Position numbers and translations under genes: made by a program
In this document: in pieces, positions 42,797 to 51,551 of the stretch
Layout: the number at the start of each line of letters is the position of its first letter
Numbering within the stretch: position 1 is the first letter of the stretch
Assembly (NCBI RefSeq): GCF_024223415.1
Contig: NZ_CP100500.1
Source of the DNA: Escherichia coli
GTDB taxonomy: Bacteria; Pseudomonadota; Gammaproteobacteria; Enterobacterales; Enterobacteriaceae
Strand: one strand, 5' to 3'
DNA: 64,000 nt
The notes under the pieces: generated by a model
Seen by the model: the letters and a program-made list of their open reading frames with translations, nothing else
What the model was told of the DNA's origin: nothing
The model's database searches: none

Positions 42797-42873
42797 TGGA
42801 CCGCCACCGGGGACTCGAACCTCGCACACTCAACTTAAAGGGTTGACGCTCTTTCCTGATGAGCTAGTGGCGG
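42797..42873 (-). tRNA. tRNA-like gene with non-canonical anticodon loop CCUUUAA (by analogy to Stx-phage argN/argO position)
   Basis: Cloverleaf with 7-bp acceptor, GCTC/GAGC D-stem, TTCGAGT T-loop, CCA encoded; C33 and one T-stem mismatch. Confidence 0.55.
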
Positions 42874-42874
42874 T

Positions 42875-42950
42875 TGGTGGCCCTTGCTGGATTTGAACCA
42901 GCGACCTGGCGATTATGAGTCGCTCGCTCTCACCACTGAGCTAAAGGGCC
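42875..42950 (-). tRNA. tRNA with CAU anticodon (ileX/ileZ-like tRNA-Ile2 or Met)
   Basis: GGCCCTTTAGCTCAGTGGTGAGAGCGAGCGACTCATAATCGCCAGGTCGCTGGTTCAAATCCAGCAAGGGCCACCA folds as canonical cloverleaf. Confidence 0.8.
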
Positions 42951-43160: not shown

Positions 43161-43856
43161 TCAATCTACTTTTGCAACACTTTGCTTTGAAAATGCCGCC
43201 TTTTGTTTTGAACGTGTTCTCATTACAAACAATAAAGCCTCACTATCCAGTCGGTGAAAAATGTGTTTCATTGCAACCCAGTGACGAGTAAATGTTTTGG
43301 ACCAGTTTTTAGTTGTCACTCCCGCCAGTAATGCCAGCTCCTGGTATTCATAACTTTCCCCACCAAAAAGTTCTGCTTTTACTGCCTGCGCCGCCAGCCA
43401 GATTAATTTTTTCAGGCGTTCCTGCGTTTTCCCTGCAATTTTTCTGGTACCTGATTGAGTATTAAATTCATTCCACGCCCACTGTGTTATCGCGATCTGA
43501 TATTCCCAACAAATACTCCCGCTGTAACTCCACAACAACCAGGCTTTATGATGTTCTTCAAGAGACAGAACAGCCCGCCGCCACGATGATGTCGAAAACT
43601 CAACCGGGCTGACCAGGGCAATTGATGAGCCTTTCGCCAGTGATTGTTTTCCCGGGATTGGTGGATTATCCCGCGTTATCATTTTTCCAGTCACTTCATC
43701 GCGGTACCGGATTTTTTTACGCCTGTAACGCCCTGTATCAAACATGGCATTCTCCTGCCAGGCCTCAAGCTGCCCTTTTGTTGATCCACTCAAATCGGCG
43801 GTGGCAATCATGAGTTGCTGACGAACAAACTGTAAATACTGGTTATTCATGCGCAC
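43161..43856 (-). CDS. Putative late-gene antiterminator Q (QuuQ/YdfT-like)
   Basis: 231 aa; sits downstream of rusA and DUF968 gene and upstream of tR' and lysis genes, as QuuQ in Qin prophage. Confidence 0.55.
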   Translation of the reverse strand: MRMNNQYLQFVRQQLMIATADLSGSTKGQLEAWQENAMFDTGRYRRKKIRYRDEVTGKMITRDNPPIPGKQSLAKGSSIALVSPVEFSTSSWRRAVLSLEEHHKAWLLWSYSGSICWEYQIAITQWAWNEFNTQSGTRKIAGKTQERLKKLIWLAAQAVKAELFGGESYEYQELALLAGVTTKNWSKTFTRHWVAMKHIFHRLDSEALLFVMRTRSKQKAAFSKQSVAKVD

Positions 43857-45734: not shown

Positions 45735-46127
45735 CTACTGCCCAGTTCTAACGAAGTTTTTGAAGGAAACAACTGCCTGATAGAGGTTTGGTTGACAGCC
45801 AAACATATTATCGCAAAAAGGCTGGATGAAAATTCTTGAGGATCCATCTTCATTTGGCATTTTACTCACTTGATAAGCGAGGAGTGGACTATTTGGTGAG
45901 GGGTTATAAGTGGAAATTAGCGTGTCTGTCGCCGTTTGAATTTTCCATGCGGAATTATTAGCCAACCAGAATTGCGCGCGTTTCCAATAAAAGTCACATT
46001 GCTTTTCATCTTTACATGTTAGTGGCTTCATTGCTTCTGCTTTCAACGCAGGATCGACCTTTGCTGCACACCCTCCCAACATTACTGTTGCAATCATTAC
46101 ACCTGCAACTAAAACAAGTTTCTTCAT
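45735..46127 (-). CDS. Lipoprotein (nin-region cargo)
   Basis: 130 aa; MKKLVLVAGVMIATVMLGGC lipobox; six further Cys. Confidence 0.65.
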   Translation of the reverse strand: MKKLVLVAGVMIATVMLGGCAAKVDPALKAEAMKPLTCKDEKQCDFYWKRAQFWLANNSAWKIQTATDTLISTYNPSPNSPLLAYQVSKMPNEDGSSRIFIQPFCDNMFGCQPNLYQAVVSFKNFVRTGQ

Positions 46128-46270
46128 CTCCCTGCCCCCATCAGTAAAAGTTCGGTTCTCTGATAACTAGAGTTAATCAACGGAAAAACGCCGAAGCGGG
46201 TTAAGTGTGGGTGCATTGAGGATGCCTGACTCATCAGAGGTGGCGAGGGATTTCTCCCTCGCCTGGTCTC

Positions 46271-46426
46271 TTACTCCTCAGGTTCGTAAGCTGTGAAGAC
46301 AGCGACCTCCGTCTGGCCGGTTCGGATTCGTACCTCGCAGAGGTCTTTCCTCGTTACCAGTGCCGTCACAATGACGGTAATACAGATGACGATCAGGGCG
46401 ACTAACATCGCCTTTTGCTGCTTCAT
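46271..46426 (-). CDS. hok: Hok/Gef family type I toxin
   Basis: 51 aa MKQQKAMLVALIVICITVIVTALVTRKDLCEVRIRTGQTEVAVFTAYEPEE, nearly identical to remembered HokD/RelF. Confidence 0.88.
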   Translation of the reverse strand: MKQQKAMLVALIVICITVIVTALVTRKDLCEVRIRTGQTEVAVFTAYEPEE

Positions 46427-46717
46427 AGCCTGCTTCTCCTTGCCTTTCGGCACGTAAGAGGCTAACCTAGATTTGCCGTTCATAGATTGAGCCTCAGATT
46501 AATGTTAAGCGTCTTGCCGGACGCGTAATGTTAACTGGGGCTTTTCTCTATCTGCCTTTTGGGGTTCATGCCTGAGACAGATAGCCTCAAGCACCCGCTG
46601 CAATTCTACTTAACTCTCCTTTTCCCGCAAACCATTTTTATCCCCAGCGGCAAATCGAATACACCACCAGCGCCACCGCCATCGCAATTCCTACCGTTGT
46701 GAATGCTTCAGGCCAGG

Positions 46718-47233
46718 TCATCGTAAAATATCCTCCGCGCTTATCAGTCCATTTCGTTTCAGGTAATCCATCGCCTTCTCCGGTAATTTGCAGTCCGGCT
46801 GAGCTTTTTTCAGTTGACTGACCAGTCGTTTAACCCACATTGTTAATTCGCCAACCTGATTACTGGATGCCAGTGGATTGTCGGCTTTACCCAGAATGAC
46901 AGCACAGCAGGCCTCTTTGAGCACCCAATCAACAGCATCTTTCCATGCTCCTGTTTCGACTGGTGGATTCTCACGCTTTACCTGTTCATAAAAGCGCACG
47001 GCTTTAACCAGTCCTTCTGATGTCACCGGGACTGACGGGGCAGTGAATAAGGCCTGAATCTCATAGCTCGGCCTGTCGTTGCAATCCTCTTTTGTCGGTA
47101 CATATTTCCAGTCACCAACCCACATCTTCTCCTGAAAGTCCGTAACGCCTTTTTTCACGTAGCGATATCGCCATACAACTGGTTTTGCCTGCCCTGCCGT
47201 TTCATGCCCTTCCTGATAATTAATCTCGCTCAT
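46718..47233 (-). CDS. Hypothetical nin-region protein
   Basis: 171 aa ORF. Confidence 0.55.
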   Translation of the reverse strand: MSEINYQEGHETAGQAKPVVWRYRYVKKGVTDFQEKMWVGDWKYVPTKEDCNDRPSYEIQALFTAPSVPVTSEGLVKAVRFYEQVKRENPPVETGAWKDAVDWVLKEACCAVILGKADNPLASSNQVGELTMWVKRLVSQLKKAQPDCKLPEKAMDYLKRNGLISAEDILR

Positions 47234-49325: not shown

Positions 49326-49868
49326 TCAGACAAAACCAGCCGCTTTCCGGCGTTCATACTCCTGTTTCAGCAACTCAATTGGCGTTGGTCCCGACGGGCG
49401 TTTGGGGGCCGCCAGTTGTCGCCGGACTGGCGGAACGCTGAGGCCCATACCAACATGCTTTGACCATTTCGTCAGTTGCCGTTCTGCAAACCGTTTTAAC
49501 TCCCCTTCGGTCATCTGGCGTTCAATCCCCTTTGAACGCATCTCGAGGCATATGTGATACAGCACAGGCTGAGACCACGGGTATTTATCGCTTCCGTCGT
49601 ATCGCCAGGACTCATTGCGCCAGCGTCGGTACTCCTCCATCACAGCCCCCACCGTCAGACCGAATGGATTGGCCCCGCTTTCCGGAATCAGTGCCACAAA
49701 CTCAGCCAGGTCAGGAGGCCATGTTTCACCCGCCCGGCAGCGGTCCATGCACTGGCGGCAGACCTGCCGGATTTGCTGCTCAGTCATCGCGCCAATCTGT
49801 GCAATCCAGAGCTTCGAAGGTGCGGCCCCGTTCTTCCGGGTCCAGCGGTCCGAATAAACCTCCCCCAT
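49326..49868 (-). CDS. Replication protein P-like (DnaB helicase loader)
   Basis: C-terminal half resembles lambda P (YPW..LT..ELRR..); start uncertain (ATG 49868 or 49787; ORF track start 49991 overlaps upstream gene). Confidence 0.65.
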   Translation of the reverse strand: MGEVYSDRWTRKNGAAPSKLWIAQIGAMTEQQIRQVCRQCMDRCRAGETWPPDLAEFVALIPESGANPFGLTVGAVMEEYRRWRNESWRYDGSDKYPWSQPVLYHICLEMRSKGIERQMTEGELKRFAERQLTKWSKHVGMGLSVPPVRRQLAAPKRPSGPTPIELLKQEYERRKAAGFV

Positions 49869-50790
49869 GAGTTCCCACAGCTTCCAGGCTGTTTCCGTCG
49901 CTGATAAATCCGTTTTCACGTTCCCACTGCTCACGTGCTGCCCGAATTTCCTGAACTGCCCGTGATGCGGTGCCACCTGGTGCTGCTGCATGGTTCACCC
50001 CCTTGCTGACTGGTTTAACCTGCGCCCTGACGTGATTTACGTGACGGGCGAATTTCTGCTCCCACTGAACCTGTGTGAACACTTTCCCCTCCGCCATCCA
50101 GTAATCCCGGAAGGCGGCAAGTTCAGCAGGTGTAAATTCCGGTTCCGGCAAAGCCGCTCCCCACAACGCAGCCCGCCGTCGAAAATCCAGCGACGGATGC
50201 CAGCCATCGGCCATCGGAAATTTCCCGATGGGTTCACTCAGGCCATCCGGAAATTCAGGTTCCGCCACCTGCAACGGCGTACCGTTCGGTTCACTGGTCG
50301 GAGCACTCTCGCGCACGCGCGCGTTATGTGTGGGGTTTAATTCTTTATCTGTATCTTTATTAGTTGCCTTTGTGTTTGCGTCATGTTCAAACACCACACC
50401 AACATTTGTTTGAACACCTGTTAAATCTCTCTCTTGTTTTGTTTGAACATCTGCTTCCTTTCTGCTTCTTCTGGCCTGAACAGATGCTTTTCCGGCGGCT
50501 GATTTTTTGGTTAATTTTTCCCTGACTGATGCCAGATCTTCCTCAATCCGAAGATGCACCCATTCATCGCCGTTATCGTGAAAAAACTCCCGCAAGGATG
50601 GCTCCACATCAGCCCATCGCTCATTAGTCAGACGGGCAATTTTTGCCAGCCTGTTTTTAGGTATTGGCTTTCCTGTTTGCCAGTAATTGAACATCAGCAA
50701 CAAATACGCACCGTGCTCCTCTGCTGATAAATGCATGGTGTCAGCCAGGTAATCAGCGATGTACAGTTGCATGTATGGTAATGCGGCCAT
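49780..50790 (-). CDS. Replication initiation protein, YdaU/DUF1376-like N-terminal domain (O position)
   Basis: 336 aa; N-terminal YMQLYIADYLADTMHLSAEEHGAYLLLMFNYWQ. Confidence 0.65.
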   Translation of the reverse strand: MAALPYMQLYIADYLADTMHLSAEEHGAYLLLMFNYWQTGKPIPKNRLAKIARLTNERWADVEPSLREFFHDNGDEWVHLRIEEDLASVREKLTKKSAAGKASVQARRSRKEADVQTKQERDLTGVQTNVGVVFEHDANTKATNKDTDKELNPTHNARVRESAPTSEPNGTPLQVAEPEFPDGLSEPIGKFPMADGWHPSLDFRRRAALWGAALPEPEFTPAELAAFRDYWMAEGKVFTQVQWEQKFARHVNHVRAQVKPVSKGVNHAAAPGGTASRAVQEIRAAREQWERENGFISDGNSLEAVGTHGGGLFGPLDPEERGRTFEALDCTDWRDD

Positions 50791-50860: not shown

Positions 50861-51286
50861 TCAGTGCATCACCACAGCATTACCCGCCGGGCCACCACGA
50901 TTCATCTGATTGAAACCGGCGATTGCCACTGCGATAAAATCATCAGCGTCTCTCACCAGCCGTTCTCGTGTCTCCAGCAGCTCCCTGAAATAGGCTGAGC
51001 TGTGGCTACGCATTCTGGCCACCAGCAAAGGCGGCATTGCCTTTTCGATCGCTGGTAGTAACGCCTGAATTTTTTCAACCGCATCAGGGGTGTCTTTCTC
51101 CACCCAGCGGAAAATTTTCTGGGTATTACGGGCCAGGGCTTCCGGATGGCTGTCGTCATACAGTTCCGGGAACGTCATACCCAGCTCAAAATAAGCCCGG
51201 GTTATTTCAGCTGCCGGAACTTTTTCGCCATCCGGACGCGCCCAGGCATTCATCGCCATGCGGATGTGTTCATGCTTGATTTTCAT
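50861..51286 (-). CDS. YdaT-like protein (cII position)
   Basis: 141 aa; starts MKIKHEHI as remembered for Rac YdaT. Confidence 0.6.
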   Translation of the reverse strand: MKIKHEHIRMAMNAWARPDGEKVPAAEITRAYFELGMTFPELYDDSHPEALARNTQKIFRWVEKDTPDAVEKIQALLPAIEKAMPPLLVARMRSHSSAYFRELLETRERLVRDADDFIAVAIAGFNQMNRGGPAGNAVVMH

Positions 51287-51551
51287 GAATCAAGCTCCTA
51301 GTAAGTGGTTGTGTTAACGTTTTGGTATCTTCCAGCTCGGGCCAAATATTCATCCAATCAAAAGGCCTTAGTTGCTGACGTGTAACTTCACCATTACTGG
51401 CTCGCTCAATAAGGACACATAACGATGCCCCTAACATTTGACCTTTACTCAATGCCTTTCTTAGATAACCGATGCTAGTACCACACTCACATGCAAACAT
51501 ACGCTGTTCATCTGACGAAAGAGAATTGAGAAATATTCTTAATTCTTCCAT
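51270..51551 (-). CDS. Cro-like / YdaS-like HTH regulator
   Basis: 93 aa, first gene divergent from repressor; HTH ..CGTSIGYLRKALSKG.. Confidence 0.7.
   Translation of the reverse strand: MEELRIFLNSLSSDEQRMFACECGTSIGYLRKALSKGQMLGASLCVLIERASNGEVTRQQLRPFDWMNIWPELEDTKTLTQPLTRSLIHENQA

What the first reader, a model, noticed from the sequence alone, without database searches (positions are those of the whole stretch)
46271..46560. Stand-alone hok/sok-type type I toxin-antitoxin in the nin region
A 51-aa Hok/Gef toxin nearly identical to the HokD/RelF sequence I remember is present without a relBE operon upstream. The upstream leader should encode an overlapping mok frame and an antisense Sok RNA. 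Such modules can stabilise the prophage or provide abortive-infection defence.
Basis: partly seen in the sequence, partly recalled or inferred. Interest (0 to 1): 0.45.

Follow-up and report, generated by a model that had tools for sequence, protein, structure and literature searches.

The report
Intact hok/mok/sok toxin–antitoxin cassette in prophage
This is an ordinary, complete copy of the well-known hok/sok RNA-controlled toxin–antitoxin module, of the type already annotated and tested in Shiga-toxin phages as hokW-sokW, sitting between the replication and Q genes of a lambda-like prophage.

Summary
On the minus strand there is an intact 51-aa Hok toxin (46426..46271). It is 49/51 identical to K-12 HokD and identical to the RefSeq protein that PGAP names HokD. 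An in-frame 70-aa Mok frame starts at 46483. No relB or relE occurs anywhere in the window.

It contains:
- a hok promoter;
- a 5' 'tac' end that pairs with a 3' 'fbi' element;
- an anti-SD/mok-SD hairpin;
- a Sok gene on the plus strand (about 46475-46545) with its own promoter;
- a 3' protective hairpin.

Rfam RF01794 scores 112 bits and Pfam HOK_GEF 83 bits.

The cassette is about 92% identical to hokW/mokW/sokW of phage 933W/Sp5. [quoted passage not shown] Related DNA is present in 4933 of 5426 complete E. coli genomes. The K-12 relBE-hokD arrangement is the truncated exception.

Verdict: already known, low interest.

One side observation may be worth a follow-up. A 22-nt stretch (the Sok 5' tail and its target loop) is about 20 times more variable than silent sites in hok.

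The parts
46625..46630 (-). hok promoter -35 (TTGCGG)
   Evidence: Located. It lies 16 nt upstream of the -10. TTGCGG, TTGGCG or TTGCAG recurs at this position in most homologous loci. It falls below the threshold of the consensus scan.
46603..46608 (-). hok promoter -10 (TAGAAT)
   Evidence: Lies 6 nt before the mRNA 5' end. TAGAAT, TAAAAT or TAAGAT is kept at this distance in 44 of 45 distinct upstream contexts, including contexts otherwise unrelated in sequence.
46184..46596 (-). full-length hok (mok-hok) mRNA; 5' end placed by homology, 3' end inferred
   Evidence: The Rfam RF01794 match starts at 46596 at model position 1. Homology among 77 loci runs from about the promoter to 46184/46189. 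The MFE fold is -159.7 kcal/mol, z = -5.5.
46585..46596 (-). tac (5' translational activator element, GGGUGCUUGAGG)
   Evidence: Pairs with fbi in the MFE of the full-length RNA. 99.5% of cells are paired in 63 homologues. R1 hok mRNA folded as a control gives the same 5'-3' pairing.
46568..46578 (-). partner of tac in the local (metastable-type) 5' hairpin
   Evidence: Appears in the MFE of the 3'-truncated RNA. It is 100% pairable in 63 homologues, and 4 positions vary only in wobble-compatible ways.
46548..46584 (-). conserved 5' hairpin (nt 13-22 with nt 40-49)
   Evidence: Seen. An A-U to G-C compensatory change occurs in 13 of 63 sequences. R1 has the equivalent CUUUCUGCC/GGCAGAAAG hairpin.
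46535..46542 (-). ucb / anti-SD (AGCCCCAG) that sequesters the mok SD in the closed form
   Evidence: Pairs with 46490-46497 in the MFE; the pairs are listed, helix 4. It can alternatively pair with tac (G2-C60, G3-C59, G5-C57, C6-G56, U7-A55), and these positions are invariant in homologues. The model is taken from PMC9841398.
46491..46495 (-). mok Shine-Dalgarno (GAGGC)
   Evidence: Lies 8 nt upstream of the mok AUG and is invariant in 63 homologues.
46458..46495 (-). Sok-target hairpin (mok SD GAGGC paired with dcb GCCUC; mok AUG in the stem, variable loop)
   Evidence: Forms in all 20 sequence variants when folded alone. The closing pairs are invariant. R1 has the same GAGGC...GCCUC closure.
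46271..46483 (-). mok reading frame, 70 aa, in frame with hok
   Evidence: It is 60/70 identical to MokW. The frame is kept open in nearly all of 63 homologues even though residues 2-5 are hypervariable.
46271..46426 (-). hok toxin gene, 51 aa; SD GGAG lies at 46436-46439
   Evidence: Pfam PF01848, 82.6 bits. PHROG 251, 'MokW-like host killing', 113 bits. 49/51 identical to HokD and 45/51 to HokW. Identical to WP_000813267.1, which PGAP names HokD.
46440..46445 (+). Sok promoter -35 (TTGCCT)
   Evidence: Located. A 17-nt spacer separates it from the -10. The complementary columns are invariant in 63 homologues. R1 has TTGCGC at the same place.
46463..46468 (+). Sok promoter -10 (TAACCT)
   Evidence: Located and nearly invariant. 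The same hexamer in sokW is the one mutated in the 'pro-less' construct that released HokW toxicity (primer YO-421 against the wild-type sequence).
46475..46545 (+). Sok antisense RNA (about 71 nt; ends placed by homology to annotated sokW)
   Evidence: sokW coordinates in AF125520 were transferred through the alignment. The fold shows a single-stranded 5' tail, a long hairpin and a U-rich tail; -31.4 kcal/mol, z = -5.3.
46469..46490 (.). hypervariable stretch (Sok 5' tail, loop and upper stem of the target hairpin, mok codons 1-5)
   Evidence: Nucleotide diversity is 0.33 here, against 0.044 for the rest of the cassette and 0.017 at four-fold sites of hok. There are 20 variants in 63 sequences.
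46242..46263 (-). 3' hairpin GGCGAGGGA-GAAA-UCCCUCGCC (expected 3' end of the processed, active mRNA)
   Evidence: 99.6% of cells are paired, with compensatory changes in 6 sequences. In R1 the equivalent last hairpin protects the truncated mRNA from exonucleases (PMC9841398).
46209..46221 (-). fbi (fold-back inhibition element, CCUCAAUGCACCC)
   Evidence: Pairs with tac. Homology to 933W ends just after it.
46184..46199 (-). terminator-like hairpin plus U-run, weakened here
   Evidence: Most relatives have CCCGCUUCGGCGGG followed by a U-run (-11.8 kcal/mol). The window lacks two G, leaving a 3-bp stem (-3.1 kcal/mol). The terminator scan does not detect it.

Best explanation
The locus is a complete, apparently functional hok/mok/sok type I toxin-antitoxin cassette of the hokD/hokW lineage. 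It is carried as an autonomous ~450-bp insert in the early-right operon of a lambdoid prophage, between the replication genes and DUF968-RusA-Q.

Mechanism, by homology with R1 hok/sok and hokW-sokW:
- A weak promoter makes a stable full-length hok mRNA. Its 5' end (tac) is locked to its 3' end (fbi), and its mok ribosome-binding site is buried by an upstream anti-SD box, so it is neither translated nor bound by Sok.
- Slow 3' trimming back to the GC-rich hairpin removes fbi. The 5' end then refolds, the mok SD moves into a hairpin with the dcb box, and mok-coupled translation of Hok becomes possible.
- In a lysogen the abundant, short-lived Sok RNA, made from the opposite strand, pairs with this hairpin through its 5' tail, and the duplex is destroyed.
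- When Sok supply stops, the stored mRNA is translated and the 51-aa Hok peptide inserts into the inner membrane and depolarises the cell.

What is shown here: all sequence and structural elements are present and conserved.

What is inferred: expression, toxicity and the trigger.
- The most likely role, by analogy with hokW-sokW, is Hok production after prophage induction, which hastens lysis and raises phage release. Killing of cells that lose the prophage would be a by-product.
- My own inference for the trigger is that induced sense-strand read-through from the early operon interferes with the convergent Sok promoter and/or titrates Sok.
For: Family assignment: Pfam HOK_GEF 82.6 bits; Rfam RF01794 112.4 bits, full model length; PHROG 251 'MokW-like host killing'.

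Relatives: about 92% DNA identity over 450 nt to 933W hokW/mokW/sokW, which are annotated there. Hok is 49/51 identical to HokD and 45/51 to HokW.

Folding: tac-fbi pairing appears in the MFE, and the R1 control folds the same way. The 5' end refolds when the 3' end is removed. Sok folds as a tail plus hairpin plus U-tail.

Conservation in 63 distinct homologues: 96.8% of structure cells are paired against about 40% for slid controls. There are 6 pairs with compensatory changes, and 0 of 500 shuffles reach that number. The alternative 5' hairpin is 100% pairable, and the open-form pairs are invariant.

Promoters: the hok -10 is kept across unrelated upstream contexts. The Sok -35 and -10 are invariant, and the Sok -10 equals the element mutated experimentally in sokW.

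Experiments on the closest relative (PMC8621323): HokW is toxic. sokW expressed from its own promoter neutralises it. sokW RNA disappears and HokW appears after mitomycin C in a RecA-dependent way. Deleting the locus halves phage yield.

Context: the flanking ORFs lie mostly on the same strand as hok, about 80% of flanking coding length in 80 loci. No terminator is predicted between the upstream ORFs and hok.
Against: - Nothing about expression or toxicity can be measured here.
- The terminator-like hairpin after fbi is weakened by a 2-nt deletion, so the 3' end of the primary transcript may differ. 933W lacks this hairpin altogether and is still functional.
- The MFE of the truncated RNA does not itself show the tac/ucb open form; it shows only the local tac hairpin.
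- No YUNR U-turn motif is obvious in this variant's target loop. This was by eye and was not formally tested.
- According to the introduction of bioRxiv 10.1101/2025.08.07.668861, the chromosomal hokA, hokB and hokC loci could not mediate post-segregational killing.
- The read-through/interference trigger is my inference. Co-orientation is frequent but not universal.
Confidence: 0.85

Rival explanations
1. The cassette is a silent relic. It would be structurally intact but not able to kill, like the chromosomal hok loci of laboratory E. coli, and carried along passively by prophage recombination.
For: The hokA, hokB and hokC chromosomal loci were reported unable to mediate post-segregational killing (cited in bioRxiv 10.1101/2025.08.07.668861). 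K-12 hokD has lost its whole leader. The window's terminator hairpin is degraded.
Against: Every regulatory element is intact and under visible constraint. hok diversity is 0.011 at first and second codon positions, helices carry compensatory changes, and promoters are invariant. The close relative hokW-sokW is active. No IS element or frameshift is present.
Confidence: 0.07
2. The main role is prophage addiction (post-segregational killing). Cells that excise and lose the prophage lose Sok faster than hok mRNA and die, which stabilises lysogeny.
For: This is the established function of R1 hok/sok on plasmids (PMC9841398; PMC10899753 listed). The 933W GenBank record annotates hokW and mokW with 'prophage maintenance'. 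The structural features needed, a stable locked mRNA and an unstable antisense RNA, are all present.
Against: Deleting hokW-sokW did not affect growth of the lysogen, and the phenotype that was measured concerned induction. Prophage curing without induction is rare, and no stability data exist for this lineage.
Confidence: 0.3
3. The main role is defence of the lysogen against other phages (abortive infection). A superinfecting phage shuts off host transcription, Sok decays, and Hok kills the cell before the invader matures.
For: R1 hok/sok on a high-copy plasmid reduced T4 plating by 42% and plaque size by about 85%, as cited in PMC8621323. Prophage accessory genes in this region are often defence genes.
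Against: Hok is not in PADLOC-DB, and the neighbouring ORFs I scanned gave no defence hits. A survey found hok is not enriched near defence systems (section heading; discussion passage). The R1 effect is weak and was seen at high copy number.
Confidence: 0.15

Closest known systems
hokW / mokW / sokW of Stx2 phage 933W and Sakai prophage Sp5 (GenBank AF125520; Takada et al. 2021, PMC8621323)
   Same: The cassette architecture and length are the same, with about 92% nucleotide identity over 450 nt. Mok is in-frame and 70 aa in both. The Sok promoter hexamers, tac, fbi and 3' hairpin are identical. The 27-aa ORF and hok promoter upstream are also shared.
   Different: Hok differs at 6 of 51 residues, four of them in the C-terminal tail. 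Mok residues 2-5 and the Sok 5' tail are a different variant: AUGAACGGCAAAUCU against AUGCUGAACACAUGU. The position in the phage genome also differs. In 933W the locus lies near attR, beyond the tail genes; here it lies between the replication genes and Q. 933W also lacks the short terminator hairpin after fbi.
hokD (relF) of the Qin cryptic prophage, E. coli K-12
   Same: Hok is 49/51 identical. The 3' UTR with hairpin and fbi is the same. The neighbourhood is the same, with DUF968 (ydfU) and Q downstream.
   Different: In K-12 homology starts only 17 nt upstream of the hok AUG. The leader, mok start, Sok gene and hok promoter are replaced by relBE. The window has the full cassette and no relBE. 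Among the 84 fetched loci compared, 77 are full-length and only 3 (K-12 itself, L015, L042) show the relE-type breakpoint.
hok/sok (parB) of plasmid R1, the paradigm of the family
   Same: The order of elements is the same: tac, 5' hairpin, ucb, Sok hairpin, mok SD/dcb target hairpin closed by GAGGC...GCCUC, mok, hok, 3' hairpin, fbi. The same 5'-3' pairing is predicted. tac/fbi differ in a compensated way: GGGUGC/GCACCC here against GGCGC/GCGCC in R1.
   Different: Takada et al. report HokW and R1 Hok as 44% identical. R1 mok is in the +1 frame relative to hok, whereas it is in-frame here. This Sok hairpin carries an extra inner stem-loop (GCGUC-CGGCAA-GACGC), shown as an insertion relative to the Rfam consensus. 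The replicon is a prophage rather than a plasmid.

Membership tests
[quoted passage not shown] | Small Hok/Gef membrane toxin (Pfam PF01848) | tested here: met
   82.6 bits against a cut-off of 22, E=1.5e-23, covering the full 42-position model. PHROG 251 scores 113 bits.
[quoted passage not shown] | Conserved hok mRNA leader (Rfam RF01794) | tested here: met
   112.4 bits against a gathering score of 59, model positions 1-157, at 46596..46421. The match is on the hok (sense) strand, so it identifies the leader that contains the Sok complement, not a transcript.
[quoted passage not shown] | Overlapping mok reading frame with its own SD, starting upstream of hok | tested here: met
   A 70-codon ORF starts at 46483, with GAGGC 8 nt upstream. 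The frame is kept open in nearly all 63 homologues.
[quoted passage not shown] | Cis-encoded antisense Sok gene opposite the mok translation start, with promoter and hairpin/U-tail | tested here: met
   The promoter is TTGCCT-17 nt-TAACCT, invariant in homologues. The locus is homologous to annotated sokW. The fold is a tail plus hairpin plus U-rich end. The same -10 was shown to be functional in sokW.
[quoted passage not shown] | Long-range tac/fbi pairing of the mRNA 5' and 3' ends | tested here: met
   12 pairs in the MFE; 99.5% paired in 63 homologues; the R1 control behaves the same. These pairs hardly vary within this close set, so covariation here is uninformative. Against R1 the change is compensated.
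[quoted passage not shown] | Alternative pairings: ucb/mok-SD (closed form) versus tac/ucb and mok-SD/dcb (open form) | tested here: met
   The closed form is in the MFE. The SD/dcb hairpin forms in all 20 variants. The tac/ucb and SD/dcb pairs are possible and invariant. The switch itself is not demonstrable in silico.
[quoted passage not shown] | Stable 3' hairpin that stops exonucleolytic trimming | tested here: met
   A 9-bp GC-rich hairpin with a GAAA loop lies at 46242-46263, with compensatory changes in relatives.
[quoted passage not shown] | Toxicity of Hok and neutralisation by Sok RNA | not testable with these tools
   Shown only for the relative hokW-sokW (PMC8621323).
K-12-type hokD (relBE-hokD operon) | hok directly downstream of relBE, with the hok leader, mok start and Sok missing | tested here: not met
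   The leader is complete. There are no relB or relE hits in the window. K-12 homology begins 17 nt before the AUG. PGAP's name 'HokD' reflects toxin sequence only.
Lambda nin region | Location between replication gene P and antiterminator Q | tested here: met
   A Phage_lambda_P domain lies at 49326-49991 and Phage_antiter_Q at 43161-43856, both on the minus strand, with hok between them.
Lambda nin region | Presence of lambda Nin proteins (NinB, NinG and others) | tested here: not met
   The ORFs scanned gave DUF968/HNH, RusA, DUF977 and DUF1627 but no Nin family. The region is nin-like by position only.
Catalogued anti-phage defence systems (PADLOC-DB 2.0) | Match to a defence-system protein model | tested here: not met
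   No hits for Hok, Mok or three neighbouring ORFs.

The most novel reading that the evidence does not exclude
The 22-nt stretch covering the Sok 5' tail, the loop of its target hairpin and the first five mok codons (46469-46490) may be a specificity code under diversifying or balancing selection. Prophages that carry almost the same Hok toxin would then keep private, non-cross-reacting antitoxins. That would stop a resident prophage's Sok from disarming, or being disarmed by, another prophage's module in the many E. coli genomes that hold several copies. The evidence here does not exclude this and is suggestive. Diversity is 0.33 in this stretch against 0.017 at silent sites of hok. There are 20 variants in 63 sequences. 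Every variant still forms the hairpin. A recent large Hok survey explicitly left Sok and Mok unanalysed.
Probability: 0.3. Interest if true: 0.4.

Novelty: already known. Interest (0 to 1): 0.12.

Why it matters
As a discovery it matters little. It is a textbook module whose close relative has been annotated in the phage 933W record and tested experimentally in 2021.

It is useful for annotation. Automatic pipelines label only the toxin, as 'HokD', and omit mok, Sok and the regulatory RNA elements. That hides the fact that this copy is complete and self-regulated, unlike the truncated K-12 gene it is named after.

For anyone studying this prophage, the cassette is a candidate modifier of lysis timing and phage yield after induction, and a possible obstacle to curing the prophage.

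The hypervariable antitoxin-recognition stretch could be a tractable system for asking how multiple copies of one RNA-controlled toxin coexist in a genome.

Tried and rejected
- The consensus promoter/terminator scan of 46100-46750 found nothing. Both promoters are weak by consensus (8/12 and 7/12 matches), so they were placed by homology and conservation instead.
- The MFE fold of the 3'-truncated mRNA did not reproduce the published open tac/ucb form. It showed only the local tac hairpin, so I do not claim the switch is predicted, only that the pairings are possible and conserved.
- I first labelled the nt 13-22/40-49 hairpin as ucb/dcb. After reading PMC9841398 I reassigned ucb to the anti-SD box (46535-46542) and dcb to GCCUC (46458-46462).
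- NCBIfam gave only sub-threshold hits for Hok (48.6 bits against a cut-off of 73), so that library does not support a HokD equivalog call.
- I tried to test whether co-resident copies in one genome always carry different Sok-tail variants. Only 4 same-genome pairs could be recognised among the fetched IMG/VR loci, far too few. The second scan was therefore not used further.
- The 27-aa upstream ORF gave 19 synonymous to 41 nonsynonymous distinct codon changes. That is not distinguishable from neutral, so no claim is made.
- Structure prediction and the large protein-database searches were not run, because the family assignment was already unambiguous.
Full report
**What is in the sequence**

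The feature lies on the minus strand. A 51-codon ORF (46426..46271) encodes MKQQKAMLVALIVICITVIVTALVTRKDLCEVRIRTGQTEVAVFTAYEPEE. A longer in-frame ORF starts at 46483 and encodes 70 aa.

The protein matches Pfam HOK_GEF over the whole model (82.6 bits, E=1.5e-23) and PHROG 251, 'MokW-like host killing'. The 176 nt upstream of and including the hok AUG (46596..46421) match Rfam RF01794 end to end, at 112.4 bits against a gathering score of 59. That match is on the hok strand. It therefore identifies the conserved leader in which Sok is encoded antisense, not the Sok transcript itself. None of this is a chance match.

- Hok differs from K-12 HokD at two conservative positions (V9I, I16L) and from HokW of phage 933W at six.
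- It is identical to WP_000813267.1, which NCBI's pipeline names 'type I toxin-antitoxin system toxin HokD'.
- tblastn with K-12 RelB, RelE and Rem finds nothing in the 64-kb window; the best E-values are 0.35-1.2.
- There is only one hok copy in the window.
- An alignment with the K-12 Qin region shows that K-12 homology begins only 17 nt before the hok AUG. Everything upstream there is relE. The window keeps the whole leader.
The stated span (46271-46560) misses the first 36 nt of the leader, the promoter and the entire 3' UTR.

**Anatomy**

Coordinates are. mRNA nucleotide i corresponds to window position 46597 minus i.

On the minus strand:
- hok promoter: TTGCGG (46630-46625), a 16-nt spacer, then TAGAAT (46608-46603).
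- mRNA 5' end at 46596, beginning GGGUGCUUGAGG (tac).
- A conserved hairpin, nt 13-22 with nt 40-49.
- The anti-SD box AGCCCCAG (ucb, 46542-46535).
- A long hairpin that is the complement of the Sok stem.
- The mok SD GAGGC (46495-46491).
- mok AUG at 46483.
- The GCCUC box (dcb, 46462-46458).
- hok SD and AUG (46439-46424), and the stop codon at 46273-46271.
- A 9-bp GC-rich hairpin with a GAAA loop (46263-46242).
- The fbi element CCUCAAUGCACCC (46221-46209).
- A short hairpin plus U-run (46199-46184).

On the plus strand:
- Sok promoter: TTGCCT (46440-46445), a 17-nt spacer, then TAACCT (46463-46468).
- Sok RNA, placed by transferring the annotated 71-nt sokW of AF125520 through the alignment. 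It runs from about 46475 to about 46545.

**Folding**

- The full-length RNA (46596..46186) has an MFE of -159.7 kcal/mol (z = -5.5). In it, nt 1-12 pair with fbi, and the mok SD is paired with the anti-SD box.
- R1 hok mRNA was recalled from memory, confirmed as 100% identical to thousands of IncF plasmids, fetched and folded as a positive control. It gives the same 5'-3' lock and the same 5' hairpin.
- Removing the 3' end (46596..46238) makes the 5' end refold onto the sequence immediately downstream. This corresponds to the metastable-type hairpin described for R1 (PMC9841398).
- The published open form is tac/ucb plus SD/dcb. It is not the MFE. Its pairs are possible here, however: G2-C60, G3-C59, G5-C57, C6-G56, U7-A55, and GAGGC with GCCUC. 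These positions are invariant in relatives.
- Sok folds into a single-stranded 5' tail, a long hairpin and a U-rich tail (-31.4 kcal/mol, z = -5.3).

**Relatives**

- The 501-nt region has matches in 4933 of 5426 complete E. coli genomes. The median is 2 places per genome and the maximum is 9. The match covers most of the query in 3820 genomes.
- It matches 101 phage records, including 933W, VT2-Sakai and many other Stx phages at about 92% identity.
- In 933W the locus is annotated as hokW, mokW and sokW.
- A scan of IMG/VR with the Hok protein returned 80 loci. Of the 84 fetched loci compared (these 80 plus four reference loci), 77 contain the complete cassette. Three, including K-12 itself, show the relE-type breakpoint. 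L034 starts at the contig edge and L075 lacks only the first nucleotide and the promoter. Two are cut short at the 3' contig end.
- Homology typically starts between about -50 and +1 and ends at 46184-46189. The unit therefore behaves as a discrete ~450-bp cassette inserted in different surroundings.
- The -10 hexamer (TAGAAT, TAAAAT or TAAGAT) stays 6 nt before +1 in 44 of 45 distinct upstream contexts, even where the rest of the upstream sequence is unrelated.

**Conservation of structure**

These counts are on an alignment of 63 distinct cassettes (A2).

- The window's full-length structure is 96.8% paired, against about 40% for slid controls.
- It has 6 pairs with changes on both sides, a number reached by 0 of 500 shuffles.
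- The compensatory changes sit in the nt 13-22/40-49 hairpin (A-U to G-C in 13 sequences), the Sok hairpin and the 3' hairpin.
- tac/fbi is 99.5% paired but almost invariant in this close set, so it is uninformative for covariation. Against R1 it changes in a compensated way: GGGUGC/GCACCC here and GGCGC/GCGCC in R1.
- The local tac hairpin is 100% pairable, with four wobble-compatible variable positions.
- Positions 13 and 20 take part in both mutually exclusive helices and vary only in ways that fit both.

**Experimental knowledge of the closest relative**

Takada et al. 2021 (PMC8621323) reported the following.

- HokW arrests growth when induced.
- The native fragment with sokW is harmless. 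Mutating the sokW -10 makes it toxic, and sokW supplied in trans partly rescues.
- Their mutagenic primer YO-421 changes AGGTTA, the complement of TAACCT. That is exactly the hexamer I place at 46463-46468.
- RNase III and Hfq contribute to antitoxin activity.
- In an Sp5 lysogen both RNAs are present. After mitomycin C, sokW RNA vanishes and HokW appears in the inner membrane, in a RecA-dependent manner and about an hour before endolysin.
- Deleting the locus delays growth arrest and halves phage yield.

A recent survey finds hok genes four-fold enriched in prophages and present in 9.3% of Escherichia phages (bioRxiv 10.1101/2025.08.07.668861).

**Context in the window**

Reading along the minus strand:
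1. YdaS/YdaT-like genes.
2. A DnaT/DUF1376 replication organiser.
3. A lambda-P-like protein.
4. DUF1627 and DUF977 proteins, then several small phage ORFs.
5. A 171-aa PHROG 660 protein and a 27-aa ORF.
6. The hok cassette.
7. A 130-aa lipoprotein-like ORF and a PHROG 1212 ORF.
8. DUF968/HNH, RusA and antiterminator Q.
9. tRNA-Met and tRNA-Lys, then lysozyme.

This is the position of lambda's nin region, but no Nin family was detected among the ORFs scanned. Near-identical neighbourhoods occur in E. coli prophages.

**How it most likely works**

Shown here: every sequence and structural element of the R1 paradigm is present, intact and conserved.

Inferred by homology: the full-length mRNA is locked and silent. 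3' trimming to the hairpin at 46242-46263 frees the 5' end, exposes the mok SD in the target hairpin, and allows either Sok binding and RNase III cleavage or, without Sok, mok-coupled Hok synthesis and membrane damage.

Inferred from hokW: the physiological trigger is prophage induction, and the pay-off is earlier lysis and more released phage.

My own inference for why Sok disappears on induction rests on three points:
- hok is co-oriented with the early operon (about 80% of flanking coding length in 80 loci).
- No terminator is predicted upstream of it.
- Sok's promoter fires against that direction.

Antiterminated read-through could therefore occlude the Sok promoter and provide excess target that titrates Sok. 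This is untested.

Addiction to the prophage and exclusion of other phages remain possible additional roles. No catalogued defence model matches, and hok is not enriched near defence systems.

**Differences from the references**

- Against R1: mok is in-frame, whereas R1 mok is in the +1 frame. The Sok hairpin carries an extra inner stem-loop. Takada et al. give HokW and R1 Hok as 44% identical.
- Against 933W: the Sok-tail/mok N-terminus variant is different, the Hok tail has four substitutions, and the site in the phage genome is different.
- Against most close relatives: a 2-nt deletion weakens the small terminator hairpin, from -11.8 to -3.1 kcal/mol. 933W lacks this hairpin and is functional, so I do not regard the deletion as disabling.

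**Side observation**

Within otherwise 96%-identical cassettes, one 22-nt stretch (46469-46490) is hypervariable. Nucleotide diversity there is 0.33, against 0.044 for the rest of the cassette and 0.017 at four-fold degenerate sites of hok. There are 20 variants among 63 sequences.

The stretch covers the first ~16 nt of Sok (its single-stranded recognition tail), the loop and upper stem of the target hairpin, and mok codons 1-5. Each variant still folds into a hairpin closed by the invariant GAGGC...GCCUC, and the mok frame stays open.

This pattern would be expected if antitoxin-target recognition is kept private among co-resident copies. I could not test that: only four same-genome pairs were recognisable. 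The recent Hok survey did not analyse Sok or Mok.

**Verdict**

Novelty: already known. Interest: low (0.12). The modest residual value lies in correct annotation of mok, Sok and the RNA elements, and in the hypervariable recognition stretch.

Noticed in passing
window 46469-46490 (both strands): A hypervariable 22-nt stretch inside an otherwise 96%-conserved cassette. It covers the Sok 5' tail, the target-hairpin loop and mok codons 1-5. Diversity is 0.33 against 0.017 at silent hok sites, with 20 variants in 63 sequences, and all variants keep the hairpin. It may determine antitoxin specificity.
   Followed up: partly
window 46638-46721 (minus strand): An unannotated 27-aa hydrophobic ORF (MTWPEAFTTVGIAMAVALVVYSICRWG). 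Its start overlaps the stop of the upstream 171-aa ORF (ATGA), and it ends 8 nt before the hok -35. It is open in 44 of 47 homologous copies and is also present in 933W. The substitution pattern (19 synonymous to 41 nonsynonymous) does not show whether it is a real gene.
   Followed up: partly
window 45735-46127 (minus strand): A 130-aa ORF with a lipoprotein-type signal (…MLGGC…) lies directly downstream of the hok cassette. It matches PHROG 16082 (unknown function) and has no Pfam, NCBIfam or PADLOC hit. In K-12 Qin and E. coli strain Ch1 the same slot holds rem instead, so this is an exchangeable cargo position.
   Followed up: partly
window 46184-46199 (minus strand): The small terminator hairpin after fbi has lost two G compared with most relatives: CCCGCUUCGGCG-UUUUU against CCCGCUUCGGCGGG-UUUUU, or -3.1 against -11.8 kcal/mol. 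hok transcripts may therefore read into the downstream lipoprotein-like gene.
   Followed up: partly
window 46285-46288 (minus strand): The Tyr47 codon of hok is UAC followed by G (UACG). I recall UACG as the TadA target motif; the bioRxiv survey (10.1101/2025.08.07.668861) states only that hokD mRNA is edited to give a cysteine it numbers 46. Editing at 46287 would recode Tyr47 to Cys.
   Followed up: no
window 46509-46524 (minus strand) / Sok hairpin: An extra inner stem-loop (GCGUC-CGGCAA-GACGC) appears as an insertion relative to the Rfam sok consensus. It is present in nearly all hokD/hokW-type loci but is replaced by an unrelated shorter sequence in L009 and L011.
   Followed up: no
window 42797-42950 (minus strand): tRNA-Met (CAT) and tRNA-Lys (TTT) genes lie just downstream of the Q antiterminator gene. 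Related E. coli prophages carry different tRNA sets (Ile/Thr/Gly or Ile/Lys) at this position.
   Followed up: no
window 50861-51551 (minus strand): A YdaS-like/YdaT-like gene pair sits at the start of the early-right operon, in the cro/cII position. This pair is sometimes labelled a toxin-antitoxin system in annotations.
   Followed up: no
L075:1250-1345: One IMG/VR locus keeps the full hok cassette from nt 2 of the mRNA onward, but an unrelated GC-rich sequence replaces the promoter. This copy is possibly promoterless or read-through-driven.
   Followed up: no
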